64,000 bases of DNA. Origin: Eledone cirrhosa (lineage: Eukaryota). The stretch is from the NCBI GenBank assembly GCA_964016885.1, contig CAXHJY010001659.1, forward strand, positions 1 to 64,000, in the 5' to 3' direction. A program made the position numbers and the translations under genes. Within the stretch, counting starts at the first letter, position 1. Every line of letters starts with the position of its first letter. Below are positions 3,036 to 34,022 of this stretch, in pieces. The notes beneath the pieces were generated by a model. The model was not told the origin of the DNA, searched no databases, and was given only the letters and a program-made list of their open reading frames with translations.

Positions 3036-3771
3036 CGTGTGACGGTATTTTAACGATAGTTATAGCTCTGATTTATTTGAATTATAGAGCCCTCTGCCGC
3101 TCATCTCGAATTTTGTTTATCGTGAACTCGTGCGCCGATTTTTCGATACTCGATTATTCTACTATATTTAGCTCTAGACCTAGCTATTGACCAGTTAATT
3201 TTATTGTTCATTTTTTGTCGATTCTATTAAATGATGAATAGCTCCTGTTTATTTTAACATGTCTATTGAGCACTCTTATTCGATATGTGTTATTCCACAT
3301 TTTCCCGAATATTTTTTGCGGATATAAAGGTTATCTCCCTTGCTGAAATCCATGTGCGTATTTTCAGCCTGGGTTTTGTCTTTTCATCCGTTCGGACTAA
3401 AGCTCGTTGAAGAAATAACTCCAGTCCCCCGTCGTTTGTAAGTCTTATATTTTTATGTGAGCTGATAGAGGACGGTTTAAGGATTTACAGAAACCCAAGA
3501 AGCTAGATATACCATCTCTCTAGTGGGTCCGGGTATGCTTTTTACATTCATTTGATTTATTGATTTATTGATAATTTATCTGAGTGTCCCGAATCTTCCA
3601 TATCGCAATTTTTCGGTTGTTTGGTTGATTGTAGACATATTCTACGTGTGACGGTATTTTAACGATAGTTATAGCTCTGATTTATTTGAATTATAGAGCC
3701 CTCTGCCGCTCATCTCGAATTTTGTTTATCGTGAACTCGTGCGCCGATTTTTCGATACTCGATTATTCTAC
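3036..3771. mobile_element. (TA)n-flanked element with 127 bp terminal direct repeats (period 609)
   Basis: 3036-3162 is repeated at 3645-3771, with TA runs on both sides. Confidence 0.7.
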
Positions 3772-4763
3772 TATATATATATATACATATTTATATATAA
3801 TTATGACTAATGGCTCTAGGAAATCCATGAACGACACCACATCTTTTAACTTTGATTTTGAAAGTAGGTTTATAATTATTAATATTCATTAAGGTTTTGT
3901 TGCTGCCTCGGCGGAATAGTTGGATGATTCATAGGCGGTGGTGATGCAGGTCTGAAGTTCGATCCTGGTCCGGAGTAGGGTTCCCGGTAAACCTTTTCAA
4001 TTTTTTTCTATGGGATGTAAAATATAAACTGAAAAAGATTACATGTACCTCTTGACCAGGATTGAACCCAAGACCAGGACCTCCACCGTATTTAGTACCT
4101 ACCGCTGTGCCACAGAGTCAACTACGAAAGTCTTATGAGAATTCATACTTATAAACCTACTTTCAAATTTTCAACACAAAATGATGTGGTGCCGTTCATG
4201 TCTTTCTTAATGTTATTGCTCCTACTTAAGGTCCACTTCTAAATAATTTGGGTGTTCCATAAACTTTCTTTCTCTTAAACTTCAGGTATTTTTTGAAAGT
4301 TAAGCATTGGTCCCTAAAATACTACAGTGAGCCCTGCAATGTTACGGCAACCTGGGTATCCGGCCAGTCAGCCACTGACCATAAATACAGCTCAGGATCA
4401 GAGTCCCAGAGTTGTAGGATTGAATATGAGAGAATCGGTATTTATCAATGGACAGTTATATGTAAGTTGTTCACGAGTGGGAACACTTAGAAATCTTCAT
4501 GTACTATGCACGAACAGTATAACGAAAGATCTGGTGTAACTGGAATTTTGGAGTATTGTTTCATGCCACACACACACACACACCACGGTCTCGCCTCATA
4601 CTATAAACCAAACAATGCATCGAATACAGTTGTTTTCTCTTCTACCTGTCTTTTATCTATTTACCTGCATGAAGCTGGGTGCCTCAGCTAGTATCTCTCT
4701 CTCTCCATCTTGTCAATATCGTGTAAGACAGAACAAAAGGGAGACACAAAATAAAAACCATAT

Positions 4764-4804
4764 TCACTGAGGAGATCACAGAATGTGTGACGAAAGAGCT
4801 TTGA
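4764..4804 (+). ncRNA. Type I hammerhead ribozyme motif (GTCACA-stem family, copy 1)
   Basis: TCA CTGAGGA GATCACA gaatg TGTGAC GAAA GAGC TT TGA. Confidence 0.65.
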
Positions 4805-5356
4805 CAATATATAAACAACCACCCGGTTATCGAACCAACCAATCAACCAACCAGCCAACCAACCGGAAATTTATAATAAATTGAAGTGAAAACCACAGGT
4901 GTGTCTCTTTTTGTTGGCAGCATGGCCCTCCCAAAGTATAGCAATATCTGTTTCAACACACGTTTTCAGATAAGAAATCTTGCAAAGCAAATTCAAAAAT
5001 GATGTATATATATATATATATATTTTCCCCTACTATATCTAGCGTAAAACTAATGATATATTTTTTCATTGTACTGTTTCGTTTGCTTTGTATTTCTGTT
5101 TGTCTTTTGTATATACTGTATATATATATATATGGTCGGGATTTTACATCTCTCTCTATATATATATATTTTGTCTGGTGATCCTGTGAGTACACAGGTC
5201 AAACTACAAAGTAACAAGAATCTACTTCGGTATTAAGTACACATTCTCAGTCCGTCAACTTTATACGGACACACACACACACACACACACACACACACAC
5301 ACACACACACACACACACACACACACACACACACACACACACATATATATATATAT

Positions 5357-6520
5357 ATAAGAAAGTAAGTCCATAGAATCATTTGATAAAATCTATACAG
5401 TATTTCTCCTCCCAATCAGCATAATCAACCACATAAAAAAAATCAATTAAACGAGGCTATAAGTTTAAAATGTACCTATGAAGAAACAATAGTAAATAAA
5501 TGATAGCTATTTTATCCGCCATCCACGGCCACAGATTTACCTAGTATTTCTAATAGCACGTAGAAATTGACTAGACATATAGCTAACCATACACAATTAG
5601 GTACAAAATCAAAGTTAGAAGAAAAATGTAGATACACGTACCAAAATTATGTTTCTAACCCCGAAGGTTTCATTTGCTTTTTGGAAATATCCGATCATGG
5701 ATAAATCAACGAGTTTCGAAATCACCAGGAAACAAACTCAATTGGACAAAGATTTTTCTTAAATGATCCCCGCCAGAAACAAATTCAAAATGGCTAATAA
5801 TTGTCACATGGCCAGTGGTCAAGTCAGAAAGCTTGTGATTGGTGCCTGACGGCGAGTAGGCTGGCTGCTAGAAAGCGCAGCCGAATACTGCCTAAAGTTT
5901 TACTCAACCTTACGGGAGTATATAAAATATAGAGGTTTACATATACATAAACTAGACAGAGCCATATATATATATATATATATATGTTTTTGGCAACCAT
6001 TCACGGTGTGGCTCAATGACGAATTAATTAATTAAATATTCAACAATCAGAGCAATATATAAGAAAGTAAATCTATAGAATCATTTGATAAAATATATAC
6101 AGTATTTCTCCTCCCAATCAGCATAATTAACCGCACAAAAAATCAATTAAACGAGGCTATAAGTTTAAAATGTACCTTTGAAGAAACAATAGATAAATAA
6201 ATGATAGCTATTTTATCCGCCATCCACAGCCACAGAAGATTTACCTAGTATTTATAATAGCCCGTAGAAATTGACTAGACATATAGCTAACCATACACAA
6301 TTAGGTACAAAATCAAAGTTAGAAGAAAAAAATGTACATAAACATACCAAAATTATGTTTCTACCCCCTGAGATTTCATTCGCTTTTTGGAAATATCCGA
6401 TCATGGATAAATCAACGAGTTTCGAAATCATCAGGAAACAAACTCAATTGGACAAAGATTTTTCTTAAATGATCCCCGCCAGAAACGAATTCAAAATGGC
6501 TAAGAATTGTCACATGGCCA
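5357..6520 (-). mobile_element. Partial-tandem HHR element (period 706), retrozyme-like
   Basis: 5358-5814 is duplicated at 6060-6520. Each copy holds a minus-strand HHR (5650-5734 and 6356-6440). TA flanks. Confidence 0.7.
6356..6440 (-). ncRNA. Hammerhead ribozyme motif
   Basis: Reverse complement: TGTTTC CTGATGA TTTCG...CGAAT GAAA TCTCAGGGGG TA GAAACA, with a 6-bp stem I. Confidence 0.65.
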
Positions 6521-6528
6521 TATATATA

Positions 6529-32059: not shown

Positions 32060-32326
32060 ATCCTTACACACTTAAATATAAATGCATGTATATATACAAA
32101 TGTATAAATGCATAGCTATATACATACGTAAATGTATGGTATGTATATATGTATGTATGTATGTAGATTTATATATATATATATATTTAATATATTTAAT
32201 ATATAAATGTACATACATACATACATACATACATACATATATACATACATATATACATTTATGTATATAGCTATGCATTTATACATTTGTATATATACGA
32301 GCATTTATATTTAAGTGTGTAAGGAT
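32060..32326. repeat. ~265 bp near-perfect inverted repeat
   Basis: ATCCTTACACACTTAAATATAAATGC... is mirrored by ...GCATTTATATTTAAGTGTGTAAGGAT. Confidence 0.8.
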
Positions 32327-33005
32327 GTTGACATGATTATTTATGGGTTTTTTAGGGGGTACGGAGAAAATTTTGTCTCCAGATTATATTACCTAGGGAG
32401 ATTAAATACTACAGCTCTGGCTGAAAGCTGACCAGGTTCTCAACCTCATCAAACACTAACGCAGGCCTGTGTGTGTATACGTGTGTGTGTGTGTGTGTGT
32501 GTGTGTGTGTGTGTGTGTGTGTGTGTGTGTGTATGTGTGTGTGTGTGTATGTATTTACGTATGCATGATGCATGTGTGTGTATGTTCGTATGTATGTATA
32601 TGTATACACCCACATCTTTCATCACCATTGCTTCTTTTTGTTGTCATTTCTGTTGAAGTTGCTCTTGTAACTGTTGTTAAAGTTGACGTCCTTATGTTCA
32701 TTTTCTTTGATTTCTTTTACTTTTCTTTTATCTCCCTAGGGAATTCGTTGACAAGCTTCTTTTATTTATTTTCTTCGTTTTCTTCATTCAAATGCATTCA
32801 CACTGGCTGTCTAAGAGACGTTCAAATATGACTTATAAAACTTACCAAACTAAAGGGGCTTCCAGCGCCCCAAAGCTTCAAACGCCCCCTTGCTGCCCCT
32901 CCCCCCAGGGGGAGGAGTATATTCCCCCCCCCCCGTTGAGAACCTTTGATATAGACAGTTATGAAGTTGATGGTTTGGAGGGGATGCGGCAGATGTAAAA
33001 CCTCC

Positions 33006-33118
33006 AGTATTCCGATGATTTGATCAGAGGTAAACACTGTATTTAAGGTCGAGTGACGCAACTTCGAGTGATTAGTGGCCTTTAGACTCACCTGATCAAT
33101 GAAACAATTGTTAATACT
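33006..33118 (+). ncRNA. Type I hammerhead, CCGAUGA (U4C) variant
   Basis: AGTATT CCGATGA T TTGATCAG...CTGATCAA T GAAA CAATTG TT AATACT. Confidence 0.75.
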
Positions 33119-33191
33119 AGAAATAAAACCTTTCTGTACAGCCGACCATTGAATTCTTCAATCTTTCACTATATATATATATATATATATA

Positions 33192-34022
33192 TTCCTCACT
33201 TTCTGTTGCTTCACCATTTTGTTTGTTTACCCTCGCGTCCCCTTTATTTACGTGTACCAACGTCTTTTTTTAGCCGTTGCTCGCACCAACCGGAGGTATA
33301 TGGTCTTTAAAGCGATGAAATGCCTATGATGGTTGGAAGATCACTGATGAAGGACAAACTTTTTTCATATGTAACCCATTTGCAACTCCGCAGCGCCCTT
33401 ATTTTCCTATTTACACATATTTTTTCCTCTGCTGCTACCTGTCTTTTTCGTTCTACGTATCTTTACCCTTTCTAGCAGTCTCTCTCTCTATGTTAGCCTC
33501 TTCCTCACCCTTCACTCACTCATTCTCTGTTACTACCTCTCCTCCTCCTCTTTCTTCCCGTTTGACCTGTATGTAATCCTTTTCTCCCGCACGCTGGTCA
33601 AGCTGGTATGAATTTTTTCTCTCTCTCGTCTACGATTTCACAGAACTTATGTTTACCGAATTCGCAGACCAGACCCCTTCTTCCTCCCGTTAGACCTGTG
33701 CGAAATTCCTTCCTTGCTCACATTTCAACCAGGTTTAATGGTCTTTATTCTCTCGTTCACGATTTCACCGAATTTAAATTCATAGAAATCTGGGACTTGT
33801 CTCTTTCTTCCTCACTTTCTGTTGCTTCACCATTTTGTTTGTTTACCCTCGCGTCCCCTTTATTTACGTGTCCCAACGTCTTTTTTTAGCCGTTGCTCGC
33901 ACCAACCGGAGGTATATGGTCTTTAAAGCGATGAAATGCCTATGATGGTTGGAAGATCACTGATGAAGGACAAACTTTTTCATATGTAACCCATTTGCAA
34001 CTCCGCAGCGCCCTTATTTTCA
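33192..34022 (+). mobile_element. Partial-tandem element (period 616) with permuted HHR-like motif in each repeat
   Basis: 33192-33406 is repeated at 33808-34022. TA flanks. Confidence 0.75.

What the first reader, a model, noticed from the sequence alone, without database searches (positions are those of the whole stretch)
3036..34022. Seven unrelated partial-tandem elements with 430-710 nt periods, four near 610-635
Seen: periods of 609 (3036), 706 (5357), 614 (10831), 458 (11598), ~635 (25644), 431 (30852) and 616 (33192), all TA-flanked, five with HHR motifs. Inference: a shared mechanism and possibly a size constraint on the RNA monomer.
Basis: partly seen in the sequence, partly recalled or inferred. 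Interest (0 to 1): 0.7.

Follow-up and report, generated by a model that had tools for sequence, protein, structure and literature searches.

The report
Ribozyme-bearing mini Penelope-type retrotransposons
These seven repeats are small non-coding jumping elements, most carrying a self-cutting RNA motif, that were probably pasted into TA repeats by Penelope-type retrotransposon enzymes copying a little more than one full unit; this kind of element is known, but the enlarged ribozyme arms are unusual and the proposed size rule is not established.

Summary
All seven partial tandems exist, with periods 609, 702-706, 614, 458, 635, 431 (407 at its other end) and 615-616, and all are TA-flanked. They are not seven unrelated elements: 3036 and 10832 are collinear homologues, leaving six lineages. 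Six of seven carry a type I hammerhead fold, five with a 40-82 nt helix-II arm that Rfam misses; 33193 has only a core motif. Related copies share a fixed 3' end and differ at the 5' end, and the internal junction often resembles the TA target. This is the Penelope-like (PLE) partial-tandem signature. Broken Neptune-like and Hydra-like PLEs lie in the same window. Best reading: non-autonomous PLE-mobilised elements, akin to animal non-LTR retrozymes, reverse-transcribed for 1.0-1.7 units from a template continuous across the cleavage site (circle slightly favoured over uncleaved multimer). A shared mechanism is supported. A size constraint is not shown: 3 of 6 lineages cluster (P about 0.07-0.32), with a weak mode near 620 once an eighth element is added.

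The parts
3036..3771 (+). E1: 1.21 units of a 609-nt monomer; repeats 3036-3162 and 3645-3771; homologue of E3
3402..3534 (+). E1 type I hammerhead fold: U3.G8 core at 3407, 76-nt helix-II arm, 34-nt helix-III arm, predicted cut after 3529
   Evidence: 0/200 shuffles, widened descriptor; constrained fold within 1 kcal/mol of the minimum, but the basal pairs of helix II are not formed
5360..6520 (-). E2: 1.65 units of a 702-706-nt monomer; fixed 3' end at 5360
6355..6441 (-). E2 hammerhead in the 5' unit (canonical core, 50-nt helix-II arm, cut after 6362); second copy at 5649-5735 has A6G
10832..11558 (-). E3: 1.18 units of a 614-nt monomer; fixed 3' end at 10832; homologue of E1
11044..11193 (-). 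E3 degenerate hammerhead at the position homologous to E1's (U3.G8 and G12A; 82-nt helix-II arm; cut site after 11049)
   Evidence: the whole fold is not the predicted minimum
11600..12246 (-). E4: 1.41 units of a 458-nt monomer; two complete hammerheads (11673-11752 and 12132-12209), 50-nt helix-II arm, palindrome-like helix III
25645..26470 (+). E5: 1.30 units of a 635-nt monomer, inserted in the TA tail of the Neptune-like PLE; internal TA run at the unit junction (about 25838-25850); hammerhead about 26138-26221
30853..31544 (+). E6: about 1.6 units of a 431/407-nt monomer; short-armed hammerhead 31258-31300; the 5' end falls inside the upstream ribozyme copy, 10 nt before its cut site
33193..34021 (+). 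E7: 1.35 units of a 615-616-nt monomer; CUGAUGA at 33344 and 33960 with a GAAA 23 nt upstream, no complete fold; strand inferred from T-skew and the core motif only
57664..58307 (+). E5b: 1.02-unit relative of E5 (82-84% identical), same 3' end, period 629, hammerhead about 57972-58055
52019..52421 (+). E2b: 5'-truncated relative of E2 (about 73% identical), same 3' register, hammerhead with U3-A8 core and compensatory stems
61075..62263 (-). E8: 1.9 units of a 632-nt monomer, TATG/TA-flanked, no hammerhead found; truncated copies 14023-14595 (+) and 56733-57141 (-) share its fixed end
20222..25632 (+). Broken autonomous PLE (RT, C-x4-C-x2-C linker, C-terminal GIY-YIG: Neptune-like) with pseudo-LTRs 20223-20856 and 25055-25630, hammerhead core motifs at 20747 and 25524, TA flanks; ORF interrupted by frameshifts and stops
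   Evidence: (GIY-YIG E=0.002)
63202..64000 (+). Remnant of a Hydra-like PLE endonuclease end, with a hammerhead core near the window edge
   Evidence: translation compared by eye with Hydra alignments in PMC8557442 supplement

Best explanation
The elements are non-autonomous, non-coding retroelements mobilised in trans by Penelope-like element (PLE) proteins. Shown in the sequence: each insert is one full unit preceded by a 5'-truncated partial unit, bounded by (TA)n. Related copies share the 3' end and differ at the 5' end. A type I hammerhead fold lies on the sense strand 78-304 nt upstream of the 3' end. The internal equivalent of the 3' end is often followed by a short TATA-like tract. 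Inferred: (1) a more-than-unit copy is transcribed; (2) tandem hammerheads cut out a monomer that is ligated into a circle, or the transcript stays uncut; (3) a PLE GIY-YIG endonuclease nicks (TA)n and the freed DNA end pairs with the internal UAUA tract, fixing the start of reverse transcription; (4) the RT copies one full turn and part of a second, passing the scissile bond once or twice, then stops at a variable point; (5) the 5' end is joined through 0-2 nt of microhomology. The period is then simply the family's RNA unit length, inherited within a lineage.
For: Partial tandem, 5' truncation, inverted copies and (TA)n bias are the described PLE hallmarks (PMC8557442 passages; PMC8969392 passage). 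The fixed end is shared in 4 of 4 lineages with more than one member (E1/E3, E2/E2b, E5/E5b, E8 and its two copies). In the 3 of those with a ribozyme it points towards that end. Hammerhead folds occur in 6 of 7 elements; window-wide there are 16 candidates against 1.1 expected. The E2 family has 4 of 13 pairs with two-sided changes, slid controls 0-2 (3 sequences only), plus a C3-G8 to U3-A8 switch. E1/E3 helix I keeps 5 of 5 pairs with one two-sided change. Match to the TA flank at the internal 3' junction is at least 3 nt in 5 of 8 inserts (4 of 6 lineages; background 0.029, P about 1e-5), against 0-2 nt at all 8 5' junctions. None of 7 measured 5' ends sits at the cut site (+116, +105, -162, -110, +66, +245, -10), so a cleaved linear monomer was not the template. 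Longest ORFs are 93 aa or less. Neptune-like and Hydra-like PLE remnants lie in the window. More-than-unit reverse transcription of circles was proposed in PMC4209133 and PMC7229834; internal RT initiation and AT-rich cutting were shown in vitro in PMC11167929.
Against: No element shows sequence similarity to the pseudo-LTR of the Neptune-like PLE in the window (z at most 1.5), so no partner is identified. E7 and E8 have no hammerhead fold. E1 and E3 deviate from the core, and the descriptor was widened after the fact. Rfam finds no hammerhead anywhere ([best 150 of 424 rows seen], 31, 32, 81, 82). Several hammerhead folds are not the predicted minimum-energy structure. E5, E6 and E7 scored 0 nt of strict junction match (E5 has a TA run a few bases on). 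Only E4 has two canonical cores. No insert exceeds two units, which a circle would sometimes give. The four E8 units form a star (1 informative site of 409 columns), so circle versus multimer is unresolved. In PMC11167929 ribozyme cleavage was not needed for insertion in vitro, and in the 2026 preprint 8 of 9 tested dimers did not cleave. There are no expression data.
Confidence: 0.85

Rival explanations
1. Same class, different template (nested within the best explanation): the RT copies an uncut linear transcript of a tandem donor, or jumps to a second RNA. The ribozymes are passengers and no circle is involved.
For: PMC11167929: unprocessed RNA was the dominant substrate and hammerhead mutants inserted normally in vitro. 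No insert here exceeds 1.9 units. E1 is young (0/127 differences) yet has a non-canonical core.
Against: Ribozyme stems show compensatory change across diverged copies, which implies selection on the fold. Circularised monomers fold more stably than shuffles (z -2.3 to -6.2, 12 shuffles each; the PLE pseudo-LTR -0.4).
Confidence: 0.38
2. Rolling-circle DNA transposons (Helitron- or Replitron-like non-autonomous elements) that overshoot their terminator.
For: One fixed and one variable end with more than one unit is also expected from rolling-circle DNA replication (own knowledge). E8 lacks a ribozyme and has subterminal inverted motifs (by eye).
Against: 0 of 7 have 5'-TC/CTRR-3' ends in either orientation. 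6 of 7 carry sense-strand hammerhead folds. No Rep or helicase remnant was seen, though only the long ORFs were scanned.
Confidence: 0.05
3. Two independent insertions into one TA run, or later local duplication.
For: Elements do nest in each other's TA tails here (E5 after the PLE; E3 beside E4), and E5 has a TA run between its units. Copy divergence of up to 5% is compatible with two events.
Against: Six of seven have only 0-7 nt of TA-like sequence at the junction. E5's units are 97% identical to each other but 82-84% to the other family member. Homologues E1 and E3 have the same junction.
Confidence: 0.04
4. Miniature LTR elements (TRIM or plant-type LTR retrozyme).
For: Terminal direct repeats of 113-460 nt around a non-coding interior.
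Against: 0 of 7 have TG...CA ends. Repeat length varies within a lineage (about 190 versus about 16 nt; 127 versus 113 nt). The ribozymes are type I, often outside the repeat. No tRNA gene in the window; PBS and PPT were not searched for.
Confidence: 0.02
5. Assembly artefacts at microsatellite-bounded repeats.
For: Repeat-rich sequence (15% masked); E1's copies are identical over 127 nt.
Against: The other six pairs differ by 0.5-5.3% plus indels. The window has no N. Homologous elements repeat the same junction.
Confidence: 0.01

Closest known systems
Non-autonomous Penelope-like elements (e.g. MRC1 and Chlamys-N families; PMC8557442 passages, PMC9977147 passages)
   Same: Partial tandem forming a pseudo-LTR, 5' truncation, microsatellite target, no ORF.
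   Different: Those lack canonical hammerheads and generally share 3' sequence with an autonomous family; here six of seven have hammerhead folds and no partner homology was found within the window.
Animal non-LTR retrozymes (PMC7229834, parts 2-4 of 6 read; bioRxiv 10.64898/2026.07.22.740005, parts 1-3 of 5 read)
   Same: Non-coding unit with a type I hammerhead, low GC, co-occurrence with PLEs, proposed PLE mobilisation through circles; unit lengths within the 51-972 bp range of the 2026 preprint.
   Different: Defined as arrays of two or more full units with a ribozyme in each; these are dispersed 1.0-1.9-unit inserts, larger than the 170-400 nt invertebrate examples, in (TA)n, with 40-82 nt helix-II arms. 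Circles are not shown here.
Autonomous Neptune, Hydra and Naiad PLEs (PMC8557442; Octopus Naiad and Hydra families listed with (TA)n preference in its supplement)
   Same: (TA)n targeting, pseudo-LTR, hammerhead near the 3' end (Neptune, Hydra), inverted truncated copies.
   Different: They encode RT and GIY-YIG and are several kb long. Their listed ribozymes mostly have short helix-II loops; one flagged deviant has a 34-nt loop, and eight Naiads are listed as 'half-core' with the halves 35-50 nt apart.
PLE minimal hammerheads (PMC4209133, parts 1-2 of 4 read)
   Same: Type I topology, palindromic helix III (E2b, E4, E6), U3-A8 covariant, unpaired base before helix II.
   Different: Minimal motifs are short; here helix II carries a long branched or rod-like arm and helix III is often stable (E1, E5).

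Membership tests
Non-autonomous Penelope-like element | Full unit preceded by a 5'-truncated tandem copy (pseudo-LTR) | tested here: met
   7 of 7; direction known for 6, inferred for E7
Non-autonomous Penelope-like element | Fixed 3' end, variable 5' end among copies | tested here: met
   4 of 4 multi-member lineages, E8 included; E4, E6, E7 have no second member in the window
Non-autonomous Penelope-like element | Microsatellite insertion bias | tested here: met
   (TA)n on both sides of 7 of 7
Non-autonomous Penelope-like element | No RT/endonuclease ORF | tested here: met
   Longest ORF 93 aa; no tblastn hit of two PLE proteins inside any element
Non-autonomous Penelope-like element | 3' similarity to an autonomous PLE partner | tested here: inconclusive
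   None to the one Neptune-like pseudo-LTR or the Hydra-like remnant; rest of the genome not available
Non-autonomous Penelope-like element | Mobilisation by PLE RT | not testable with these tools
   Needs biochemistry or a cell assay
Animal non-LTR retrozyme | Type I hammerhead in the unit | tested here: met
   Fold in 6 of 7, two of them with deviant cores; absent in E7
Animal non-LTR retrozyme | At least two consecutive full units, each with a complete ribozyme | tested here: not met
   All are 1.2-1.7 units; two complete ribozymes only in E4 (E2's second has A6G)
Animal non-LTR retrozyme | Self-cleavage and circular RNA expression | not testable with these tools
   No RNA data
LTR retrozyme / TRIM | TG...CA LTRs of fixed length | tested here: not met
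   0 of 7; repeat length varies within lineages
LTR retrozyme / TRIM | Type III hammerhead in the LTR | tested here: not met
   Best-scoring folds are type I; type III alternatives score lower
LTR retrozyme / TRIM | PBS, PPT and 4-bp target duplication | not tested
   TA flanks hide any duplication; PBS/PPT not searched
Helitron-type non-autonomous element | 5'-TC and CTRR-3' termini | tested here: not met
   0 of 7 in either orientation; other HUH-element termini not tested

The most novel reading that the evidence does not exclude
These are a distinct, widespread class of PLE-dependent circular RNAs whose hammerheads carry an enlarged helix-II arm (40-82 nt, seen here in four unrelated lineages counting the fold-back element at 53645-54138, plus E1/E3). 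The arm would serve as an RT-binding or activity-gating domain, a UAUA tract would act as a telomerase-like priming register, and monomer size would be drawn towards about 620 nt. Standard descriptors miss such ribozymes, so some PLE lineages described as ribozyme-free ('half-core' Naiads) may carry them too.
Probability: 0.2. Interest if true: 0.7.

Novelty: new variant of a known kind. Interest (0 to 1): 0.42.

Why it matters
How PLEs make partial tandems, and what their hammerheads do, is still open (PMC8557442, PMC11167929). Small dispersed families with a fixed start and a variable end record each reverse-transcription event, so a genome-wide count of lengths, 5' ends relative to the cut site and unit-pair identity could separate circular from linear templates. 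The long-armed hammerheads escape Rfam and would be missed in repeat annotation: an Octopus vulgaris annotation assigns 6.83% of the genome to PLEs and never mentions ribozymes (PMC13282606). The element class and the proposed mechanism are already in print, which caps the surprise.

Tried and rejected
Rfam found no ribozyme: gathering scan of the whole window 0 hits; E-value scan dominated by microsatellite hairpins, best 150 of 424 rows seen; four local scans covering E1-E5 and E7 gave only weak unrelated hits; E6 and E8 had no local scan. A strict hammerhead scan found 2 motifs. The circular-permutation scan missed E5 and E2's 3' copy because of stricter mismatch and core rules, and gave nothing significant for E1, E3, E7, E8 or the PLE pseudo-LTRs. 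My descriptors never scored the pseudo-LTR motifs as complete folds. A type II reading of E7 was rejected because helix II cannot form next to the core; non-circular permutations (PMC10085705 passages) were checked by eye only. A joint alignment of nine long-armed ribozymes did not line up the cores, so no covariance model was built. RNAalifold on the E2 family recovered helices I and III but not II. Four weak similarities with z 4.2-5.0 were composition-driven on inspection. The E8 four-unit comparison was uninformative. The five-lineage orientation probability printed was not used, because a fixed end is independently known for only three ribozyme-bearing lineages. The LINE ORF2 search and a motif search in papers did not name the host: 'probably an octopus' rests on recalled resemblance of the SINEs and the microsatellite-rich sequence, not on a call. 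PMC8490949 (passages) was not used. No eukaryotic genome or read collection was available, and the viral and metagenome contig collections stayed unchecked, so genome-wide periods, breakpoints and long-read support are untested. The preprint's supplements were not seen and may list related families.
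Full report
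Setting. The window is microsatellite-rich animal DNA (15% masked; no N). It holds a LINE at about 44482-50123 (RT, APE endonuclease and zf-RVT domains) and many SINE copies. The host is probably an octopus; this rests on recalled resemblance of the SINEs and was not confirmed by any search.

Observation. Periods are 609, 702-706, 614, 458, 635, 431 (407 at the other end) and 615-616. The inserts are 1.18-1.65 units long (E7 1.35). Copy pairs differ by 0-5.3%, which argues against artefact. A census of 81 segments between consecutive microsatellite anchors flagged 4 with matching prefix and suffix recurrence (E1, E3, E7 and a new one at 57664-58307). Longer spans added E2, E4, part of E6 and one 61-nt minisatellite. 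E5 and E8 were missed by that test but found by BLAST; shuffles gave 1.4 segments with any single recurrence. E8 (61075-62263, period 632) is an eighth case with TATG/TA flanks.

Relatedness. Of 72 orientation-by-pair comparisons among eight monomers and one pseudo-LTR, only E1 versus reverse-complemented E3 is significant (z=12; next 3.1). They are collinear, 300 of 581 aligned positions identical, and end in the same register. The finding's seven are therefore six lineages. E2 has a truncated relative at 52019-52421, E5 one at 57664-58307, and E8 two. In all four multi-member lineages one end is shared and the other varies.

Ribozymes. Rfam gave no hammerhead. A descriptor for helices I-III found type I folds in E2, E4, E5 and E6, with 0-1 of 200 shuffles scoring as high. 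E2, E4 and E5 have 40-50 nt helix-II arms. The E2 family shows compensatory change in all three helices (4 of 13 pairs; three sequences only) and a C3-G8 to U3-A8 switch, a natural covariant reported in PMC4209133 and PMC3088659. The E1/E3 alignment showed conserved core halves. A descriptor widened afterwards found folds at homologous positions with 76 and 82 nt arms and a U3.G8 core, E3 also carrying G12A (0 of 200 shuffles each). E1's fold is within 1 kcal/mol of its minimum, though without the basal helix-II pairs; E3's is not recovered. E7 has only a core motif with a GAAA 23 nt upstream. The published Naiad_Ovul 3' end shows the same order and spacing (PMC8557442 supplement; compared by eye, meaning unknown). 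Window-wide there are 16 candidates against 1.1 expected, several in fold-back TA-flanked elements. In the three ribozyme-bearing lineages with a known fixed end, the ribozyme points towards it. Cut-to-end distances are 217-304 nt in four of five lineages and 78 nt in E4.

Junctions. The internal equivalent of the 3' end matches the TA flank for 5, 7, 3, 4 and 5 nt in E1, E2, E3, E4 and E5b, and 0 nt strictly in E5, E6 and E7. E5 has a TA run a few bases on, and E6 and E7 match after a one-base slip or mismatch. Background probability of 3 nt or more is 0.029; 4 of 6 lineages gives about 1e-5. All eight 5' junctions show 0-2 nt. No 5' end of seven measured lies at the cut site, and three (E2, E4, E6) extend past it a second time. 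The template was therefore continuous across the scissile bond: a ligated circle or an uncut multimer.

Helpers. [quoted passage not shown] The linker marks it as Neptune-like by the description in PMC8557442; no tree was built. A Hydra-like endonuclease end lies at about 63202-63600 (compared by eye). Neither shares detectable sequence with the seven, so the partner is unidentified.

Size. As reported, 4 of 7 within 26 nt has P=0.07 (uniform 430-710) or 0.006 (300-1000). Merging E1 and E3 gives 3 of 6, P=0.32 or 0.07. Adding E8 restores 4 of 7 lineages, but E8 differs in flank and lacks a ribozyme (21-nt window: 0.04 or 0.003 with E8, 0.23 or 0.047 without). The window was chosen after seeing the data. 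The 5-nt difference between E1 and E3 has probability 0.23 under random indel signs. A soft mode near 620 is not excluded; a hard constraint is contradicted by 431, 458 and 704.

Mechanism. Most likely a PLE endonuclease nicks (TA)n, the DNA end pairs with an internal UAUA tract, and the RT copies one unit plus a variable part of the next. The anatomy is shown; transcription, cleavage, circularisation and enzyme identity are inferred. PMC4209133 and PMC7229834 propose more-than-unit copying of circles. PMC11167929 shows internal initiation and AT-rich cutting, but found cleavage unnecessary in vitro and initiation at a site not homologous to the cut DNA, which differs from the junction match seen here. 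E8's units form a star and do not decide the question. Circularised monomers are moderately structured (z -2.3 to -6.2 on 12 shuffles; 44-67% paired).

Comparison. The elements work like non-autonomous PLEs and animal non-LTR retrozymes. They meet the structural tests for the first, with partner homology unresolved. They fail the two-full-units test for the second. Nine literature searches returned no paper describing these families or long-armed hammerheads in cephalopods. The library is open-access only, and Repbase and Dfam were not available, so the families may already be catalogued. Papers seen: bioRxiv 10.64898/2026.07.22.740005 parts 1-3 of 5, supplements not seen; PMC8557442 passages, section 11 and supplement parts 2, 23, 24 plus searches; PMC11167929 parts 1-2 of 4; PMC7229834 parts 2-4 of 6; PMC4209133 parts 1-2 of 4; passages only of PMC10085705, PMC3088659, PMC8969392, PMC9977147, PMC8490949 and PMC13282606 (plus one supplement search).

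Verdict. The feature is real, the shared mechanism is supported, 'unrelated' is wrong for one pair, and the size constraint is unproven. This is a known class with an unusual ribozyme variant: interest 0.42.

Noticed in passing
window 20222-25632: Broken autonomous Neptune-like PLE with pseudo-LTRs, strong C-over-G skew and TA flanks; E5 sits in its 3' TA run.
   Followed up: yes
window 61075-62263, 14023-14595, 56733-57141: A 632-nt family with a 1.9-unit insert and two truncated copies, TATG/TA-flanked, with a TATG-type run at the unit junction. No hammerhead; a hairpin-rich 5' part loosely recalls an HDV-like ribozyme (by eye, untested).
   Followed up: partly
window 10372-10659, 53645-54138, 60139-60642: Fold-back (inverted) elements beside TA runs with hammerhead candidates; 53645-54138 has a 51-nt helix-II arm on both arms. 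10372-10659 is a 98.6% perfect 288-nt palindrome with a relative at 17869-18070.
   Followed up: partly
window 6521-6681, 13134-13323, 18085-18254, 31569-31711, 44098-44243, 53161-53357: Six copies of a short TA-flanked family with variable fold-back ends; no complete hammerhead scored.
   Followed up: no
window 4714-5002, 17240-17562, 53407-53452, 54197-54517: TA-flanked family with a weak hammerhead candidate (17501 -, 54266 +) and a shared end.
   Followed up: no
window 19395-19560 and 60680-60820: Short TA-adjacent fragments each with a type I hammerhead candidate, probably 5'-truncated PLE ends.
   Followed up: partly
window 63202-64000: Hydra-like PLE endonuclease remnant and a U3-A8 hammerhead core at the window edge.
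   Followed up: partly
window 44482-50123 and 54531-55794: LINE with two long open frames (643 and 1150 aa stop to stop; RT, APE, zf-RVT; Tx1/L1-like hits) and an 82% identical inverted 3' fragment.
   Followed up: partly
window 15700-15924, 27414-27636, 36891-37092, 42175-43302, 62395-62595: Many copies of a SINE family, recalled as octopus-type; ARAGORN finds no tRNA gene.
   Followed up: no
window 1895-2472 and 37956-38529: Two 85% identical copies of a 580-nt repeat with internal duplications, each preceded by a simple-repeat tract.
   Followed up: no
window 36155-36657 and 37172-37439: Palindromic minisatellite arrays with units of about 50-60 nt built from TA and CA tracts.
   Followed up: no
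window 33320-33350 and 33936-33966: In E7 a GAAA lies 23 nt before the CUGAUGA core half, the same order and spacing as in the published Naiad_Ovul 3' end; no fold explains it.
   Followed up: partly
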